Positions 24,001 through 64,000 of a stretch of 64,000 nt of DNA are shown here, piece by piece. Source of the DNA: Mustelus asterias (Eukaryota). The stretch spans positions 21,824,001-21,888,000 of the forward strand of contig NC_135808.1 in assembly GCF_964213995.1 (NCBI RefSeq), read 5' to 3'. A program made the position numbers and the translations under genes. The notes beneath the pieces are model-generated. The model ran no database searches. It was not told where the DNA came from and was given only the letters and a program-made list of their open reading frames with translations. Numbering within the stretch: the stretch's first letter is position 1; each line of letters opens with the position of its first letter.

Positions 24001-27000
24001 CTCTCGCTCGCTCTCTTCGCCTCTCCCGCTCGCTCTCTGCGCCTCTCTCGCCTGCTCTCTGCGCGCCTCTCTCGCTCGCTCTCTGCGCCTCTCTCGCTCG
24101 CTCTCTGCGCCTCTCTCGCTCGCTCTCTGCGCGTCTCTCGCTCTCTGCGCGCCTCTGTCTCTCGCTCTCTGCGCCTCTCTCGCCCGCTCTCCGCGGGCCC
24201 CTCTCGCTCGCTCTCTGCTCCTCTCTCGCTCGCTCTCTGCTCCTCTCTCTCTCGCTCTCTGCACCTCTCTCGCTCGCTCTCGGCTGCTCTCTCGCTCGCT
24301 CTCTGCGCGCCTCTCTCTCTTGCTCTCTGNNNNNNNNNNNNNNNNNNNNNNNNNNNNNNNNNNNNNNNNNNNNNNNNNNNNNNNNNNNNNNNNNNNNNNN
24401 NNNNNNNNNNNNNNNNNNNNNNNNNNNNNNNNNNNNNNNNNNNNNNNNNNNNNNNNNNNNNNNNNNNNNNNNNNNNNNNNNNNNNNNNNNNNNNNNNNNN
24501 NNNNNNNNNNNNNNNNNNNNNNNNNNNNNTCTCTCACTCGCTCTCTGCGCGCCTCTCTCGCTCGCTCTCTGCGCGCCTCTCTCGCTTGCTCTCTGCGCGC
24601 CTATCTCGCTCGCTCTCTGCGCACCTCTCTCGCTCTCTGCGCCTCTCTCTCTCGCTCTCTGCACCCCTCTCTCTCTCGCTTTCTGCGCCCCTCTCTATCT
24701 CGCTCTCTGCGCCTCTCCCGCCCGCTCTCTGCGCGCCTCTCCCGCCCGCTCTCTGCGCCTCTCTCGCTCGCTCTCTGCGCGCCTCTCTCGCTCGCTCTCT
24801 GCGCCTCTCTCGCTCGCTCTCTGCGCCTCTTTCACTCGCTCTCTGCGTGCCTCTCCCGCCCGCTCTCTGCGCCTCTCTTGCTCGCTCTCTGCGCGCCTCT
24901 CTCGCTCGCTCTCTGCGCCCCTCTCTCGCTCGCTCTCTGCGTGCCTCTCTCGCTCGCTCTCTGCACGGCTCTCTCGCTCGCTCTCTTCGCCTCTCCCGCT
25001 CGCTCTCTGCGCCTCTCTCGCCTGCTCTCTGCGCGCCTCTCTCGCTCGCTCTCTGCGCCTCTCTCGCTCGCTCTCTGCGCCTCTCTCGCTCGCTCTCTGC
25101 GCGTCTCTCGCTCTCTGCGCGCCTCTGTCTCTCGCTCTCTGCGCCTCTCTCGCCCGCTCTCCGCGGGCCCCTCTCGCTCGCTCTCTGCTCCTCTCTCGCT
25201 CGCTCTCTGCTCCTCTCTCTCTCGCTCTCTGCACCTCTCTCGCTCGCTCTCGGCTGCTCTCTCGCTCGCTCTCTGCGCGCCTCTCTCTCTTGCTCTCTGC
25301 GCGCCTCTCTCGCTCGCTCTCTGCGCCTCTCTCTCGCTCTCTGCGCCTCTCTCACTCGCTCTCTGCGCGCCTCTCTCGCTCGCTCTCTGCGCGCCTCTCT
25401 CGCTCGCTCTCTGCACCTCTCTCGCTCGCTCTCTGCTCCTCTCTCGCTCGCTCTCTGCGTGCCTCTCTCTCTCGCTCTCTGCCCCTCTCTCGCTCGCTCT
25501 CTGCGCGCCTCTCGCGCTCGCTCTCTGCGCCTCTCTTGCTCGCTCTCTGCGCGACTCTCTCGCTCGCTCTCTGCGCCTCTCTCGCTCGCTCTCTGCGCGC
25601 CTCTCTCGCTCGCTCTCTGTGCCTCTCTCGCTCGCTCTCTGCGCTTCTCTCGCTCGCTCTCTGCGTGCCTCTCTCGCTCGCTCTCTGCGCGTCTCTTTCG
25701 CTCGCTCTCCGCGCCTCTCTCGCTCACTCTCTGCGCCTCTCTCGCTCGCTCTCTGCGCGCCTCTCTCACTCGCTCTCTGCGCCTCTCTCGCTCGTTCTCT
25801 GCGCGCCTCTCTCGCTCGCTCTCTGCGCCTCTCTCGCTCGCTCTCTGCGCGCCTCTCTCGCTCGCTCTCTGCGCCCCTCTCTCGCTCGCTCTCTGCGCCC
25901 CTCTCTCGCTCGCTCTCTGCGCACCTCTCTCTCTCGCTCTCTGCAACTCTCTCGCTCGCTCTCTGCGCGCCTCTCTCACTCGCTCTCTGCGCCTCTCTCG
26001 CCCGCTCTCTGCGTGCCTCTCTCGCTCGCTTTCTGCGCGCCTCTCTCGCTCGCTCTCTTCGCCTCTCCCGCTCGCTCTCTGCGCCTCTCTCGCCCGCTCT
26101 CTGCGCCTCTCTCGCCCGCTCTCTGCGCGCCTCTCTCGCTCGCTCTCTGCGCCACTCTCGCCCGCTCTCTGTGCGCCTCTCTCGCTCGCTCTCTCCGCCA
26201 CTCTCGCCCGCTCTCTGCGCGCCTCTCTCGCTCACTCTCTGCTCCTCTCTCGCCCGCTCTCTGCTCCTCTCTCTCTCGCTCTCTGCGCCTCTCTCGCTCG
26301 CTCTCTGCACCTCTCTGACTCGCTCTCTGCGCGCCTCTTTCTCTCGCTCTCTGCGCGCCTCTCTCGCTCACTCTCTGCGACTCTCTCTCTCGCTCTCTGC
26401 GCCTCTCTCGCTCGCTCTCTGCGCGCCTCTCTCGCTCGCTCTCTGCGTGCCTCTCTCGCTCGCTCTCTGCGCGCCTCTCTCGATCTCTGCGCCTCTCTCT
26501 CTCGCTCTCTACACCCTCTCCCTCTCGCTCTCTGCGCCCCTCTCTCTCTCGCTCTCTGCGCCCCTCTCTCTCTCGCTCTCTGCGCCTCTCTCACTCGCTT
26601 TCTGCGCGCCTCTCCCGCTCGCTCTCTGCGCGCCTCTCCCGCCCGCTCTCTGTGCGCCTCTCCCGCCCGCTCTCTGCGCCTCTCTCGCTCGCTCTCTGCG
26701 CGCCTCTCTCGCTCGCTCTCTGCGCCTCTCTCGCTCGCTCTCTGCGCCTCTCTCTCTCGCTCTCTGCGCGACTCTCTCGCTTGCTCTCTGCGCGGCTCTC
26801 TCTCTCGCTCTCTGCAGCTCTCTCGCTCGCGCTCTGCATGTCTCTCTCTCGCTCTCTGCGCCCCTCTCTCTCTCGCTCTCTGCGCCTCTCTCACTCGCTC
26901 TCTGCGCCTCTCTCGCACGCTCTCTGCGCCCCTCTCTCTCTCGCTCTCTGCCCCTCTCTCGCTCGCTCTCTGTGCCCCTCTCTCTCTCGCTCTCTGCGCC

Positions 27001-37475: not shown

Positions 37476-37627
37476 AAATTGCTTTCTCTTTCTCTCTTTT
37501 TCTCTCTCTCTCTTTCTCTCCCTCTCCTTTCTCTCACTCTCTCTCTCCATCTTTATCTCTCCATATCTCATGCACTGATTCTGTCTGATGACAAACTGTA
37601 TTTTAATGCCTCTCCTTCCTTTAACAG

Positions 37628-37674
37628 CTTCTGATAAAGGGGATTCCACAACCATTTCCTCCGCAGGTTCCTGA
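37628..37674 (+). CDS. Putative terminal cytoplasmic-tail exon of an upstream MHC class I gene (xSDKGDSTTISSAGS*)
   Basis: Polypyrimidine tract plus TTAACAG acceptor (AG 37626-27), phase-1 entry, TGA at 37672-74, then G|GTATGA donor. The peptide resembles the Ser-rich 'TSDK.ES..S' C-terminus recalled for shark class I chains, and an MHC-I gene lies downstream on the same strand. Confidence 0.7.
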
Positions 37675-38092
37675 GGTATGAACTGTATTGATCAATATTG
37701 GGAGCTGATCCTTCTAGCTGGGATATTCCCGCTGGATTTAACTGTACAATCTGGTGGGTGGGATGTGAGCTCAGTGTCTGTCTCTCGCTGTATAGTCACT
37801 AAAGAGCAGCTCATCCAATCCAACACTGAGCTTTGAGACTGGCCTTCTGGAGACGGCTGCTCCTGTACAGTCTGAGGGTGGAGACATTGTGGGTGTTGAG
37901 GTGTCGAGACATCCGGAAACATCTCACCCTGGACAGCCTCCGCTAAGCTGCTCAATTTCCTTTGGAAGTCGGAATTCCCAAGTGTTTTCCCTGATGTTGG
38001 TCACTGAGCTGTGTCACTCCCACAGGATTCAACATTTAACGTTTTGTGATGGGTTTGATCTTTTTCTGGATGTTTGGGAAGCGGAGTGAATC

Positions 38093-42240: not shown

Positions 42241-43340
42241 TTGGTTAGTGTGTTGACGTCAAGATCTCCCATTCCCAAGCACTCTCGGGAAATAATAAAC
42301 ATCTTTGAAATATCAGAGCCTTTGTACCAAATCGGTGTCTGCAAATGTTTCCAAATTCTTGTGCTGCTGGAAATATTGTTACACTTTTCAGTACTGAACA
42401 CAATTGTCACCTGCGCGTGTATGTGTTTATAAAACCAACACAAAAGGTTCATCCTGCTCGGAGCTGAATGGGTTAATTCTAAATTAAAACACGTTTGGTG
42501 AAGGAATTCACTGTCATCGCGATTTCAAAAAGTGACTGGGTGACAATGTTCTCAGAGTAATGGCGGTTTCAGCAGAACAAAGATATTTCTTCAAGTTTTG
42601 TGGATTCACCATTTCAAACTGGATACTTCTGAATAAAAACCTTGGAGCACAATGGATTAGAAGATAAAGTCCCAAATGTTCTCCAGGGTTGTTTTTATGT
42701 AGATTTTAAACACAAGAATAATCCATCAACAATCACCTTAAATTCCGCTCCTCAATTCAAAATTACACCGTCGAAATTTAAGAAACGACTCTACTCTGAC
42801 AGATGTGAATTTGTATCTGGATTAGAAATCGACATGTTTCACCAGCTTCAACAGAGTTTCATTGTAGCCGGTAACAACCTACCAGTTTCAAAACTTTTAA
42901 CTGTTCTCCCCCTTTAGACCTGACCATTTTCAGGAAAACAGATCAGAGTTGGAGCCGGTCTGAAGGAACAGCAACACAGAGCATTCACACAGCCTTTCCT
43001 CATTCACTAACAGGACGTTTACACACTCACATCTGTACACACAATTCTTTCTCACAGCACTTCAAGTTTCACTCTGGATCTTTTCAAAATTAAAAACGTG
43101 TCTTTTAAAAGGGGATAACATAAATTCCATCACATCTTTTTTCATTAATGTCTGTTGTTGAAATTAAGGGAAAATCGCGTTTCACAAATAACAGGAAAGG
43201 AAGCATTGAAGATTGTTACATTGAAACAACAGAGGGCGGAGTTTCCAACAGAGTGTGTTTCAATTCCAAAACTTCTACACATTTTTTCAACCTAAAAAGT
43301 AAAACTTGTTTTATTTTCTCAATTCTGGGGACACAATCTG

Positions 43341-45322: not shown

Positions 45323-45482
45323 AGAATTCTGAATATTGAGGACGTTTGCCAACCTGTTTTGTGTCTAATCAGATTGCGGCTTCGTGTGAACAGAAAAAGA
45401 CAGAAGGAACAAGTTGAGAAGATCCCCTTTCTTTAGAAAAGAGTTTCCTCCAAAGGTTTCTCCCAACATGAGGGAAGCAGCA

Positions 45483-45531
45483 ATGATTGGACTGATAGAG
45501 CTGGTCCTTCTGTGTGGAGAGGTGTCCGCAG
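45483..45531 (+). CDS. MHC class I exon 1, leader MIGLIELVLLCGEVSA(G); in-frame upstream ATG at 45468
   Basis: LLCGxVSA signal-peptide end typical of shark class I; phase-1 G|GTGAGT donor joins in frame to GT-TCT-CAC (GSH) of exon 2. Confidence 0.85.
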
Positions 45532-45941
45532 GTGAGTGATGGGGTGTGAGAGGGGCAATGCCAGGCTGGGTACTGGGGCATTAGCCCTGGGTCAGTGAGT
45601 GATGGGGTGTGAGAGGGGCAATGCCAGACTGGGTACTGGGGCATTAACCCTGGGTCAGTGAGTGATGGGGTGTGAGAGGGGCAATGCCAGGCTGGGTACT
45701 GGGGCATTAACCCTGGGTCAGTGAGTGATGGGGTGAGAGAGGGGCAATGCCAGGCTGGGTACTGGGGCATTAACCCTGGGTCAGTGAGTGATGGGGTGTG
45801 AGAGGGGCAATGCCAGACTGGGTACTGGGGCATTAACCCTGGGTCATTGGGTGATGGGTGTGAGAGGGGCAATGCCAGGCTGGGTACTGGGGCATTAATC
45901 CTGGGTCAGTGAGTGATGGGGTGCGAGAGGGGCAATGTCAA
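45532..45941. repeat. 63-bp minisatellite, ~6.5 copies, starting exactly at the intron 1 donor
   Basis: Units start at 45532, 45595, 45658, 45721, 45784, 45847 and 45909. Confidence 0.95.
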
Positions 45942-45974
45942 GCTCGGTGGAGCTCTTGCTCTCAGTTTAGAATT

Positions 45975-54467: not shown

Positions 54468-54728
54468 GTTCTCACTCTCTCCAGATTTTCGTCACGGGAA
54501 TGACTCCAATCCCGGGTTTCCCGGAGTTTGTGATTGTCGGTTATGTGGATGATCTCCAGGTTGTTGTGTACGACAGCGATCGGAAGGAGCTGATCCCCCG
54601 GGAGCAGTGGATGGTGGAGAGAGACGGACATGAGGCTTGGGAACAGAAGAAGATTCTCGCACAAGAGCTGGGGATGATTTTCAAAGTGTTTATTCCGTCC
54701 TTCATTTCTCTGTCCCAGCAGACAGGAA
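54468..54728 (+). CDS. MHC class I exon 2 (alpha1 domain), non-classical
   Basis: TTTTCAG acceptor; 261 bp, phase 1/1; GSHSLQIFVTGMTPIPGFPEFVIVGYVDD...YDSD...PREQW...QQTG; A|GTGAGT donor. Confidence 0.96.
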
Positions 54729-55100
54729 GTGAGTCCTCACTTTCCCACCACTCGGGGGTGCAGGTGGGAAGATACCAAGAATGGATCAGGAACTGGGAGC
54801 CAGAGGCTGATTGGCTACGATTGGATATGTGACAGGAAATTTGATTGGTGATCAATGAGTGGAGGGAATGTATCCAAGAGAGACTGGTTTGGATTGGCTG
54901 TGTGTGGAGGACATGAGATCCACTTAGTGTAACTGCCGCTGATTGGCTTTCTATGTGGTGGGAGGTGCCTCCCAGCCTCCCTTGATTTAATTGGCTCTTG
55001 ATAGAGTGTGTCTGGCTTCTGAGTGGAACTAGCTTGGATTGGCTGTGGGGGTGGGATCTCACATTGGGACTGACTCTAATTGGCTGTTTGTGATCCACAG

Positions 55101-55373
55101 GCATCCATGTTTTACAGCTGACGACTGGCTGCAACCTGAGGGACGATGGGACCACGAGTGCATTCAACCAGTTTGGGTGGAATGGACAGGATGTGCTCAG
55201 CTTCGACAAGGATCACATGGTGTGGGTGACCCCAGTGCCCTGGGGAGAGAGCATCAAAAACAAACTTGACAGGGACACTGCCAACAATGAGCGATGCAAA
55301 CAATTACTGGAGGTGCACTGTATTGAGTGGCTGAGGAAATTCCTCGAGTTCGGACAGAATGAACTGACAGCCG
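55101..55373 (+). CDS. MHC class I exon 3 (alpha2 domain)
   Basis: CCACAG acceptor; 273 bp, phase 1/1, open; (S)IHVLQLTTGCNLRDDGTT...GWNGQDVLSFDK...HCIEWLRKFLEFG with both canonical Cys; G|GTGAGT donor. Confidence 0.96.
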
Positions 55374-56100
55374 GTGAGTGAGGGGGGAGCAAGAGTCGGT
55401 GAGTGAGGGGGGAGCGAGAGTCGGTGAGCGAGGGGGGGAGCGAGAGTCGGTGAGCGAGGGGGGGAGCGAGAGTCGGTGAGCGAGTGGGGAGCGAGAGTCG
55501 GTGAGCGAGGGGGGAGCGAGAGTCGGTGAGCGAGGGGGGAGCGAGAGTCGGTGAGCGAGGGGGGAGCGAGAGTCGGTGAGCGAGGGGGGAGCGAGAGTCG
55601 GTGAGCGAGGGGGGAGCGAGAGTCGGTGAGCGAGGGGGGAGCGAGAGTCGGTGAGCGAGGGGGGAGCGAGAGTCGGTGAGCGAGGGGGGAGCGAGAGTCG
55701 GTGAGCGAGGGGGGAGCGAGAGTCGGTGAGCGAGGGGGGAGCGAGAGTCGGTGAGCGAGGGGGGAGCGAGAGTCGGTGAGCGAGGGGGGAGCGAGAGTCG
55801 GTGAGCGAGGGGGGAGCGAGAGTCGGTGAGCGAGGGGGGAGCGAGAGTCGGTGAGTGAGGGGGGAGCGAGAGTCGGTGAGTGAGAGTCGGTGAGTGAGGG
55901 GGGAGTGAGAGTCGGTGAGTGAGGGGGGAGTGAGAGTCAGTGAGTGAGGGCGTGGAGTGAGAGTCGGTGAGTGAAGGAGTGGACAGAGTCGGTGAGTGAA
56001 ATGTGAGTGAGAGTCGGGGAGGGGGTGGGAATCAGTGGGTGAGTGAGGGGGGAGTGGGAATCAGTGGGTGAGTGAGGGGGGAGTGGGAATCAGTGGGTGA
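55374..56100. repeat. 25-bp purine-rich minisatellite (GTGAGCGAGGGGGGAGCGAGAGTCG)n starting at the intron 3 donor
   Basis: Perfect 25-bp period from 55501 to ~55850 with degenerate flanks. Confidence 0.95.
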
Positions 56101-61536: not shown

Positions 61537-61800
61537 TTGCCCCCGTCGTGTCCTTTACCCGTCTGGGTGATTCTAACCGGTTGTCTTGCGCCGTCACCGG
61601 GTTTTACCCTCAACCCATCGAGGTGAATCTGTGGAGAGATGTAGTGGTGATTGTTGAGACTCTGTCTAGTGGGATCTTACCCAATCAGGACAGCACCTAC
61701 CAGATCCGGAAATGGATCGCGTTTGATCCAGAGGACCAGGCCGAGTATTCCTGTCGGGTGGAACACAGCGGGATGAAGGAGACACTGGTGGTGATTTATG
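61537..61800 (+). CDS. MHC class I exon 4 (alpha3, Ig C1 domain)
   Basis: Polypyrimidine tract plus CAG acceptor; 264 bp, phase 1/1; LSCAVTGFYPQPIEVNLWRD...ILPNQDSTYQI...YSCRVEHSG; G|GTAAGA donor. Confidence 0.96.
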
Positions 61801-62127
61801 GTAAGACTGTTTCTCACTGTTAGAGAGGACCCAGCCTCAGACCAGGATCACAGGAGGGAGGGTCAGTGCTGAGCTGTCAGCCCAGGACAGCCTGAGGCCC
61901 AGTATAGAGCAAGAAGGAAATAAATATTAATCTTCAATGCATTACATAATCATGGTGTCACCATTAAAGGAAAGTGATTGTGTGTCCTGGGGTTTTACTG
62001 TGCAATCTGCCCCAGTGTATCCTACGATTTTATACCATGACAGGGCCCGGTGCATTGTGGCAAATAACAGGAAGTGCAGGACCATTGCATTGTTGAATAT
62101 TATAGTAGGAAAGGGCGCCTGTGGATC

Positions 62128-62425
62128 GTGAGATATTACTGTGTGACAGGCCAGTGTATCCTGAGATATTGCAGTATGACAGGGCCAGTGTATCCTGGGA
62201 TATTACAGTATTACAGGGCCAGTGTATCCTGGGATATTACTGTGTGACAGGCCAGTGTATCCTGGATATTACAGTATTACAGGGCCAGTGTATCCTGGGA
62301 TATTACAGTATGACAGGGCCAGTGTATCCTGGGATATTACTGTGTGACAGGCCAGTGTATCCTGGGATATTACAGTATGACAGGGCCAGTGTATCCTGGG
62401 ATATTACAGTATGACAGGGCCTAGT
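62128..62425. repeat. ~33-34-bp minisatellite (CCAGTGTATCCTGGGATATTACAGTATGACAGGG), ~9 copies
   Basis: Visible tandem units with interspersed variants. Confidence 0.92.
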
Positions 62426-62519
62426 GTATTCTGGATGTTTACTCCAGTCAACTTCGGATCAATGTTCAGAAAAATACTGGAACTCTGTCTATTGGAGGGA
62501 ATTCATGAAAATCTAGAAA

Positions 62520-63691
62520 GTCAATTTGGACTTCAGTAAGGCCTTTGATAAATTTCCATATGGCAGGCTGCTCTGGAAGGTGAGATCACATGGAATCCAG
62601 GGAGAGCTGGCAAATTGCTGATATAATTGTCGTGGTGATAGGAAGGAGAAGGTAATGGTGGAAGGGTGCTTGTCGGACTGGATGCCTGTGACTAGTGTAT
62701 GCCCCAGGGGTCGGTGCTGGGCCCATTGCTGTTTGTTATCTATATCAACAATTTGGATGAGAATGTACAAGGCATGATCAGTAAGTTTGCAGAAGACACT
62801 AAAGTAGTGGTATTTTAGGCAGTGAGGAAGGTTGTCAAAAATTGCAGCAGGATCTTGATCAGCTGGAGAAGTGGGCCGAGAAATGGCAAATGGAGTTCAA
62901 CACAGATAAGTGTGAGCTGTTGCATTTTGGAAAGTCAAATCAAGCTCAGACTTTAACGGTGAATTGGAGGACCTTAGGGAGTTTCGTGGAACTGAGGGAC
63001 CTTGGAGTTCAGGTGCACAGTTCTCTGAAAGTGGAGTCATAGGGAGATAGGGCAGTGAAGAAGCCTTTTGGCACGCTGGCCTTCAGTCAAGTCACTGAGT
63101 ATAGAAGTTGGGAAGTTATGTTGCAGTTGCACAGGACGTTGGTGAGGCCGCACCTGGAGTATTGTGTTCAGTTTTGGTCGCCCTGCTGCAGGAAAGATGT
63201 TATTAAACTCGAAAGAGTACAGAAGAGATTTACAAGGATGTTGCCAGGACTGAAGGGACTGTGTTGTAGGGAGAGATTGGACATGCTAGGACTTTTTTCC
63301 TTTGGAGCGTAGGAGACGAAGGGGTGATCTTAGAGGTATATAATAAGATCATGAGGGACATGGATAGGGTAATGCAGTCTTTTTCCCAGGGTTGGGGAAT
63401 CGAGAACTCGAGGGCATAGGTTTACGTTAAGAGGGGAAAAAATTAATGGAAACCTGAGGATCAACTGTGTTGCACAGAGAGTGGTACATATGTGCAATGA
63501 GCTGCTGGAGGAAGTGGTTGAGGCAGGGACATTGACAACATTTAAAAGGCATTTGGACAGATACATAGATAGGAAAGGTTTAGGGGGATATGGGCCAAAT
63601 ACAGGCAAATGGAGTTAAGTTAGATGGGTATTTTGGCCGGCTAGGGCCAGTTTGGGCCAAAGGGCCTGCCTCTGTGCCGTAGATTCTATGA
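62520..63691 (+). mobile_element. CR1 LINE 3' fragment, decayed
   Basis: DFSKAFDK, SKFAEDTK, QQDLDQLEKWAEKWQMEFN and LVRPHLEYCVQFWSP; tail GGGCCAAAGGGCCTG...ATTCTATG. Confidence 0.92.
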
Positions 63692-64000
63692 AAGCAAAAA
63701 ATATGATAGTTGTGATAACCCCCAGCACCTACAAGGGGAATCCCTGATTGACCCCCCAGTCAGACTCATGGGAATCTGAGTTCCAGTGGAGATAGGCAAT
63801 TGCCTAACCAGGTGGAACTCGTGTCCAGAGCCCTTGATAAGTCAATCCCTTGAGCGGGTCCGGTGTTCTATCATCCTGGATGGGACTCATGTACATGTAC
63901 CACAAAGTTGTGTTTTAACTTTTACTTTGACAAATAAAATGTCGAATGATGAAAATGTGAGCTGGAAACTATGTTTGGCGGCCTGGTACAGATGGGGACA

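What the first reader, a model, noticed from the sequence alone, without database searches (positions are those of the whole stretch)
54468..55373. Intact non-classical shark MHC-I with a hydrophobic, possibly lipid-binding groove
Seen: both groove exons are open and splice in frame. By eye alignment to classical numbering, the peptide-terminus anchors Y7/Y59/R84/T143/K146/W147/Y159/Y171 read I/A/L/I/K/L/L/F, so only K146 remains and every change is to a hydrophobic residue. The alpha1 helix is unusually apolar (ILAQELGMIFKVFIPSFISL), while fold residues (H3, D29, H93, Q96, C101, C164, W167) are kept. Established: these anchors define peptide binding, CD1-like molecules have apolar grooves, and sharks have several non-classical lineages (UBA to UFA). 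Inference: because the backbone (MTPIPGFPEFV.VGYVDD) still looks close to classical shark UAA, this may be a separate shift from peptide to lipid or hydrophobic ligand.
Basis: partly seen in the sequence, partly recalled or inferred. Interest (0 to 1): 0.8.

Follow-up and report, generated by a model that had tools for sequence, protein, structure and literature searches.

The report
Shark MHC subfamily with oily groove
This is one copy of a known, many-copy shark immune-display gene family (UBA), in a small young subgroup that has lost the peptide grips, the usual sugar site and the normal cytoplasmic tail while its binding groove turned oily and kept diversifying, so it likely displays fatty molecules rather than peptides.

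Summary
Observation confirmed: exons are open and in frame, and the eight anchors read I/A/L/I/K/L/L/F. The gene is not a new lineage and not CD1/UFA/UGA. It is a UBA class Ib gene in a cluster of about 55 copies, which the scan already noted elsewhere in this genome. Three of the seven anchor changes (59, 143, 147) are shared with other UBA copies. What is specific is a six-copy subfamily (three types). Its groove is the most apolar of 93 aligned proteins (KD 1.86; other UBA 0.43). It carries N86Q, lacks both cytoplasmic exons, and shows groove-focused amino-acid change (pN 0.36 vs pS 0.07), with 2 of 25 helix-top sites varying. A relative's RNA-like contigs splice leader-alpha1-alpha2 of this type; expression of this copy is not shown. 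Best reading (0.55): a recent, tapasin-independent shift to lipid or acyl ligands on a classical scaffold, like chicken YF1. Apolar UBA copies in zebra and horn shark arose separately. The ligand is untested, the cavity was not measured, and two key papers could not be read. New variant of a known kind; interest 0.5.

The parts
45468..45531 (+). Leader (signal peptide) exon, ATG to phase-1 donor
   Evidence: tblastn 100% to paralogue leaders, GT donor at 45532
54468..54728 (+). alpha1 exon: I7, A59, K63, L70, I73, F74, F77, F81, L84; N86Q removes the conserved glycan site
   Evidence: (PF00129); donor used in a relative's spliced contig
54729..55100 (+). 372-bp GT..AG intron; 1.4-3.0% divergent between the three subfamily types (neutral yardstick)
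55101..55373 (+). alpha2 exon: L95, D119N, V123, I143, K146, L147, unpaired C156, L159, H163, F171; C101 and C164 kept
55372..55884 (+). 25-bp minisatellite (20.4 copies, 98% matches) starting at the alpha2 splice donor
61537..61800 (+). alpha3 exon, UBA type (92% to a cluster paralogue, 75% to nurse shark UBA, 52-53% to classical UAA); private D to V at the position of 6LUP Asp220
   Evidence: (C1-set)
61801..64000 (+). Start of the intron leading to the transmembrane exon, which lies outside the window (L031:4196-4300, 4.2 kb past the end). No cytoplasmic exon or family 3'UTR follows in the 140 kb read beyond the window end

Best explanation
This is a UBA-lineage shark class Ib gene in a young six-copy subfamily with an apolar groove, no N86 glycan site and no canonical cytoplasmic exons, and it likely binds lipid or acylated ligands rather than peptides and is predicted to load them without tapasin. 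Shown: lineage, residues, exon loss and groove-focused substitution excess. Inferred mechanism: loss of Y7/Y59/Y159/Y171 and R84/T143/W147 removes the hydrogen-bond networks for both peptide ends. Smaller apolar side chains likely open the A/B end for an acyl chain, and the few polar residues left (K63, N114, K146, N152, R155, H163) would hold a head group. N86Q likely frees it from calreticulin/tapasin. Tail loss likely alters recycling. A conserved helix top over a varying groove suggests one receptor reading different ligands.
For: Groove KD 1.86, top of 93 rows, with 28 of 36 positions apolar; above the genome's own UGA-like genes (1.02 and 1.19, rough alignments at 25-32% identity). Neutral simulation 1 of 25,000. 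On the stem, 11 of 13 groove changes raise hydropathy (mean +3.9) against 9 of 19 elsewhere (+0.7). Among the three types 20 of 36 groove positions vary against 17 of 138 others (p=2e-7); 29 nonsynonymous changes on 81 groove sites against 8 synonymous on 112 sites (p=7e-7); helix-top 2 of 25; intron divergence 1.4-3.0%. All three types share the tail loss and the downstream sequence, so the groove diversified after the tail was lost. N86 is kept in 89 of 93 rows and is Q only in this subfamily; in HLA, N86Q abolishes efficient tapasin binding (PMC6859791, passages). A-pocket side-chain volume is 1611 vs 1768 +/- 45 cubic angstrom in classical rows, total 5682 vs 5798 +/- 159, so the groove is not overfilled. 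Confident class I fold, pLDDT 92.8. Spliced leader-alpha1-alpha2 contigs of subfamily type in coded run X1. Precedent: chicken YF1*7.1 (PMC2998441, PMC12212280, passages).
Against: No ligand data. The model came without coordinates, so cavity shape was not measured. Fold search cannot separate YF1 (Z 26.3) from classical BF2 (Z 26.7). Outside the groove the subfamily shows no clear purifying selection (pN 0.058 vs pS 0.071, p=0.65), and the four-copy type carries W51R, F8S and Y171S. Groove-biased change is cluster-wide (up to 3.4 x pS in 51 control pairs vs 4.0-6.4 x here), so it shows function, not lipid. Without tail exons the terminal exon and poly(A) site are unknown. HLA N86Q mutants reach the surface poorly, and the target ectodomain has no sequon at all. 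One X1 contig reads C164F. Four further copies are alpha2-only relics with two stops each.
Confidence: 0.55

Rival explanations
1. It binds hydrophobic peptides (signal-peptide or membrane-derived) or small apolar metabolites held by side-chain contacts, in the manner of HLA-E/Qa-1, H2-M3 or MR1 (recalled).
For: Variation lies inside the groove as in peptide binders, whereas chicken MHCY polymorphism points away from it (PMC9635633 abstract). Total groove side-chain volume is near classical. K63 is family-wide and C156 is unpaired.
Against: 7 of 8 terminal anchors are gone, more than in YF1, which keeps Tyr7, Arg82, Thr139 and Trp143 and uses the last three to hold the peptide part of lipopeptides. 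N86Q points away from the peptide-loading complex.
Confidence: 0.2
2. The subfamily is a set of 3'-truncated duplicates now decaying; the apolar groove is a relic of an earlier function, and this copy may be silent.
For: Both tail exons and the family 3'UTR are missing. Non-groove pN is about equal to pS. Four copies are alpha2-only with stops. This copy has the most private alpha3 changes of 22 compared, including D to V at the CD8-loop position (1 of 93 rows) (PMC10140343 passages). No run shows expression of this exact copy.
Against: Groove-directed nonsynonymous excess arose after the shared tail loss. Private alpha3 changes are 5 nonsynonymous to 4 synonymous, below the roughly 3:1 neutral ratio (small counts). 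All five exons are open with canonical sites. Spliced subfamily contigs exist in X1.
Confidence: 0.15
3. The groove collapses on its own apolar side chains and the protein is a ligand-free receptor ligand (MIC/HFE-like, recalled).
For: Bulky F74, F77, F81 and F116 cluster at the F end; the helix top is conserved (2 of 25 vary).
Against: A packed core would be expected to be conserved, yet it is the fastest-changing part, with polar swaps (S80/V/D, N152/Q/Y). Side-chain volume is not raised.
Confidence: 0.1

Closest known systems
Elasmobranch MHC-Ib UBA lineage (nurse shark AAC60347, labelled UBA in the PMC10751288 supplement; horn shark AAC60348)
   Same: Nests in the clade holding both (97/92); UBA-type alpha3; multi-copy cluster apart from UAA and from the UDA/UCA-UEA/UGA cluster; K63, I143 and Y59 loss are family traits.
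   Different: The subfamily adds Y7I, R84L, Y159L, Y171F/S, Q70L, Y73I, D77F, Y95L, N86Q, D119N and loss of both tail exons; groove KD 1.6-1.9 vs 0.43 +/- 0.23.
Chicken MHCY class I YF1*7.1 (PMC2998441, PMC12212280, PMC9635633)
   Same: Classical scaffold with a hydrophobic groove, derived from peptide-binding class I, in a multi-copy block-duplicated cluster.
   Different: Not orthologous (34% identity). YF1 keeps Tyr7 and the F-pocket anchors and binds N-myristoylated peptides; its polymorphism faces away from the groove. Here both ends lost anchors and variation is inside the groove. YF1 binding is shown; this one is predicted.
Shark CD1-like UFA and UGA (PMC12562908, cited there as personal communication; PMC10751288, unpublished data)
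   Same: Apolar groove, MHC-linked, reported lipid binding.
   Different: Ancient single- or low-copy lineages; the target is only 25-32% identical in alpha1/alpha2 to the genome's UGA-like genes 9 Mb away.
Classical shark UAA (6LUP; Triakis UAA)
   Same: Same fold (best match, Z 27.4, rmsd 3.7, 266 aligned); beta2m-facing residues largely kept.
   Different: 1 of 8 anchors; a clade with UAA is rejected (p-AU 5e-5).

Membership tests
UBA lineage | Groups with reference UBA AAC60347 in a tree | tested here: met
   alpha1+2 without groove columns: 34-row clade, 97/92; label from supplement
UBA lineage | UBA-type alpha3 domain | tested here: met
   75% to AAC60347, 82-92% to three other shark UBA, 52-56% to UAA, 47% to the ray sequence P0057
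UBA lineage | Multi-copy cluster separate from class Ia and from the UDA/UEA cluster | tested here: met
   57 of 81 alpha2 matches at C8 21.6-24.8 Mb; UGA/UDA/UCA-UEA-like at 31-33.6 Mb; UAA-type at 41.6-43.4 Mb
UBA lineage | Flanked by c4 | tested here: inconclusive
   Anaphylatoxin exons at C8 21.07 and 20.31 Mb; C3a and C4 score alike
UBA lineage | Flanked by rxrb | not tested
   no search run
Classical class Ia (UAA) | Eight peptide-terminus anchors | tested here: not met
   1 of 8
Classical class Ia (UAA) | N86 glycan site and Tyr-bearing cytoplasmic exon | tested here: not met
Classical class Ia (UAA) | Clade with UAA | tested here: not met
   p-AU 5e-5
UFA/UGA/CD1 | Sequence lineage | tested here: not met
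   25-32% alpha1/alpha2 identity to in-genome UGA-like genes vs 56-67% to UBA; UFA and CD1 compared by eye only in the supplement
UFA/UGA/CD1 | Apolar groove lining | tested here: met
   28 of 36 apolar, KD 1.86
UFA/UGA/CD1 | Deep CD1-type A'/F' cavity | tested here: inconclusive
   no coordinates for a cavity measure; fold rows tied
YF1-like lipid binders (works-like) | Classical fold with hydrophobic groove | tested here: met
YF1-like lipid binders (works-like) | F-pocket R/T/K/W kept for lipopeptide backbone | tested here: not met
   L84, I143, L147 vs Arg82, Thr139, Trp143
YF1-like lipid binders (works-like) | Bound lipid shown | not testable with these tools
   needs refolding and mass spectrometry

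The most novel reading that the evidence does not exclude
Shark UBA clusters repeatedly spin off lipid-presenting class I genes from a peptide-binding ancestor (houndshark subfamily here; separately in zebra shark P0024 and horn shark P0039, the latter also with I7, L84 and no N86). The houndshark set is a tail-less lipid presenter without the N86 glycan, under diversifying selection inside the groove: a lipid repertoire diversified like classical MHC, unlike conserved CD1.
Probability: 0.3. Interest if true: 0.8.

Novelty: new variant of a known kind. Interest (0 to 1): 0.5.

Why it matters
Lipid presentation in sharks is so far credited to ancient CD1-like UFA/UGA, and UBA ligands are unknown. 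A recent, copy-rich shift inside UBA, with close polar-groove paralogues in the same genome, gives a natural series for asking how many changes turn a peptide groove into a lipid groove, and whether tapasin independence and tail loss go with it. If the ligand proves to be peptide, or the genes are silent, this is an ordinary birth-and-death branch of a known family.

Tried and rejected
New lineage, or CD1/UFA/UGA membership: rejected. Descent directly from classical UAA: rejected. One ancient apolar UBA sub-lineage: rejected (with zebra shark P0024 p-AU 0.003; with P0024 and horn shark P0039 p-AU 1e-5); the groups were chosen by hydropathy after a first tree had been seen, LG+G4 without mixture, and P0039 is a long branch. 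Gene conversion from other cluster members as the source of groove variants: 5 of 28 singleton codons occur in the 17 other types sampled (26 of about 55 loci had both exons in hand). Fold search was uninformative on ligand, and no CD1 row was listed. PF16497 search of the genome gave 10 matches, none over the cut-off, and did not locate UFA. Run search: no RNA holder listed; 0 of 5 runs hold half the words. The transcript end after the transmembrane exon was not obtained. Homologue searches found subfamily proteins only in this species' annotation, which is weak evidence of absence. Eight promoter motif patterns upstream of the leader gave only CCAAT/ATTGG and TATAA words. Almeida 2020 (PMC7002201) and 2021 (PMC8454915) are not held and may describe UBA groove chemistry. 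Seven paper searches on shark class Ib listed nothing on an apolar UBA subfamily. No complex prediction was run (beta2m pairing is a textbook case; no lipid ligand is offered).

Full report
Observation. Both groove exons are open and have canonical splice sites in phase 1. Pfam gives MHC_I for both and C1-set for a third exon at 61537-61800. The leader is at 45468-45531 and the transmembrane exon 4.2 kb beyond the window. alpha2 is 100% identical to an NCBI model named for Mustelus asterias; that model is a chimera of this gene and one about 260 kb upstream. HLA-type numbering (recalled) was anchored on alignments to solved structures and checked on a 93-row alignment, where the eight anchor columns read Y/Y/R/T/K/W/Y/Y in 30 rows.

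More than chance. Over 36 groove positions (list, hydropathy scale and residue volumes recalled) the target scores 1.86, first of 93 rows, with 28 apolar residues. Classical-type rows give -0.08 +/- 0.39 (n=30) and other UBA rows 0.43 +/- 0.23 (n=20); non-groove positions are unchanged. Random mutation from five paralogues reached 1.86 in 1 of 25,000 runs. The gene was picked for being apolar, but this margin survives a correction for about 55 copies.

What it is. All 81 alpha2 matches in the genome are on one chromosome; 57 fall in a 3.2-Mb cluster that holds the window (lower bounds). The PMC10751288 supplement labels AAC60347 as nurse shark UBA. With groove columns removed, the target sits in a 34-row clade with AAC60347 and horn shark AAC60348 (97/92, 55 of 93 rows used), among the species' own paralogues. 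A clade with classical UAA is rejected. The genome's UDA-, UGA-, UCA/UEA- and UAA-2-like genes, labelled by eye from the supplement, lie 9 Mb or more away; UDA, UGA-like and UCA/UEA are 22-37% identical in the groove domains, the UAA-2-like gene 40-58%. The papers describe UBA as multi-copy, UAA-derived and in its own cluster (PMC10751288 section 9 and passages; PMC12562908 passages). So the gene is a UBA member, and Y59 loss, T143I, E63K and partly W147L are family traits.

The subfamily. Six of 58 alpha1 matches are at least 86% identical: the target, four near-identical copies (L002-L005) and L006. Four more copies are alpha2 relics with two stops (flanks read for 2 of the 4). The three types form a 100/100 clade. 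Shared derived changes include Y7I, Q70L, R84L, Y95L, Y159L, N86Q and D119N; Y73I, D77F and Y171F are each replaced again in one type. N86 is present in 89 of 93 rows. Both cytoplasmic exons and the family 3'UTR are absent from 140 kb (target), 79 kb (L002) and 80 kb (L006) downstream, but found in 3 of 3 control copies. By motif they were found in 4 of 5 other copies with a transmembrane exon; the miss was a stop-containing gene. Homology to a tailed paralogue ends about 100 bp before the first tail exon in all three types, which share the sequence beyond. A genome search with the tail region listed no match between this gene and 22.58 Mb, but scored only 40 of 155 candidates. Target and L006 lie in an inverted duplicate of at least 77 kb at 95-99% identity.

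Selection. Among the three types, 20 of 36 groove positions vary against 17 of 138 others (p=2e-7), and groove pN is 0.36 against pS 0.07 (p=7e-7, simple counts over three branches). The intervening intron differs by 1.4-3.0%. Only 2 of 25 helix-top positions vary. Because tail loss is shared and the groove differences are not, selection acted on tail-less genes. Against this: non-groove pN (0.058) is not below pS, and groove excess is seen across the cluster, up to 3.4 x pS in 51 control pairs against 4.0-6.4 x here. It shows a working groove, not a lipid.

Expression. No run holds this copy closely. Laid at 85% likeness, coded run X1 (RNA guessed, another coded organism) has one contig that skips exactly the 372-bp intron, two contigs joining the leader exon, one piece with 5 differences in 130 bases, and a loose end reading HVLQ, the subfamily's alpha2 start. 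The three other runs laid hold unspliced pieces, two of them running from alpha1 into the intron at 96-98%. One X1 alpha2 contig reads C164F (my translation, table 3). The subfamily type is thus likely transcribed in a relative; this copy is untested.

Structure. The AlphaFold2 model has pLDDT 92.8 and pTM 0.76. The best match is 6LUP (Z 27.4, rmsd 3.7, 266 aligned); chicken BF2 (26.7) and YF1 (26.3) are tied. No coordinates were returned. Summed side-chain volume is about 150 cubic angstrom lower at the A pocket and near normal overall, which fits an open groove but does not prove one. beta2m-facing residues are mostly kept. This copy alone has V at the position of 6LUP Asp220, named as the key CD8-loop residue (PMC10140343 passages).

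Mechanism. Shown: loss of both terminal hydrogen-bond sets (role of Y7, Y59, 63, Y159, Y171 in PMC8236899 passages), apolar lining, N86Q, tail loss. Inferred: an acyl chain in the A/B end, a head group at the remaining polar residues, loading outside the tapasin complex (N86Q effect in HLA: PMC6859791 passages, which also report poor surface expression), and altered recycling (tail Tyr role recalled). I put this at 0.55, hydrophobic peptide or metabolite at 0.2, decaying duplicates at 0.15, and ligand-free at 0.1.

Comparison and novelty. It works like chicken YF1*7.1, a classical scaffold with 16 of 30 hydrophobic groove residues that binds lipids and N-myristoylated peptides (PMC2998441, PMC12212280 passages). 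It differs in having lost the F-pocket anchors too and in varying inside the groove (PMC9635633 abstract). It is not UFA/UGA/CD1. Apolar UBA copies in zebra shark (KD 1.35) and horn shark (1.44; I7, L84, no N86) do not group with it, which suggests recurrence. PMC6523485 (passages) has no occurrence of 'hydrophobic' or 'lipid'. Seven searches on shark class Ib listed no description of such a subfamily, but two primary papers were unavailable. Earlier scan notes cover the same UBA cluster on other DNA and call it known; none of those shown describes this subfamily. Verdict: new variant of a known kind, interest 0.5.

Noticed in passing
P0001; window 42702-42878 and 45390-45533; L047: The 726-aa NCBI model fuses a UBA gene at C8 21.62 Mb with this gene through spurious linker exons; it is an annotation chimera.
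   Followed up: yes
window 37601-38029 (+): Last cytoplasmic exon and 3'UTR of an upstream UBA gene, 86-91% to a paralogue.
   Followed up: partly
window 1-37400: About 37 kb of C/T-rich simple repeat with a 200-N gap at 24330-24529, just before that tail exon.
   Followed up: no
window 45532-45948 and 55372-55884: Two minisatellites start at splice donors: 63 bp x 6.6 after the leader and 25 bp x 20.4 after alpha2; each unit repeats the donor.
   Followed up: partly
L031:4301-4470: Read-through of the transmembrane exon into the intron would give a basic tail of about 55 residues containing YSRV; in L002 it stops after 7 residues. Probably chance.
   Followed up: no
L036 (C8 42.40 Mb), L037 (C8 41.59 Mb): Of the two genes closest to Triakis UAA, one has a frameshifted alpha1 and the other a divergent alpha1 (E59); the canonical class Ia allele of this assembly is not obvious.
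   Followed up: no
P0024 (zebra shark), P0039 and P0025 (horn shark): Other UBA copies with apolar grooves; P0039 shares I7, L84 and loss of N86 with the target but not its ancestry.
   Followed up: partly
L042 (C8 31.15 Mb), L043 (C8 31.05 Mb): Two UGA-like genes side by side, one with an alpha3 nearer the chimaera UGA reference by eye.
   Followed up: no
C8 22.6-24.7 Mb (L002-L005 and neighbours): A block of about 410 kb is present four times with near-identical genes; recent duplication or assembly artefact not resolved.
   Followed up: no
L046 (C8 3.66 Mb), L045 (C8 40.1 Mb): UCA/UEA-type class I genes far from the main 32-33 Mb cluster.
   Followed up: no
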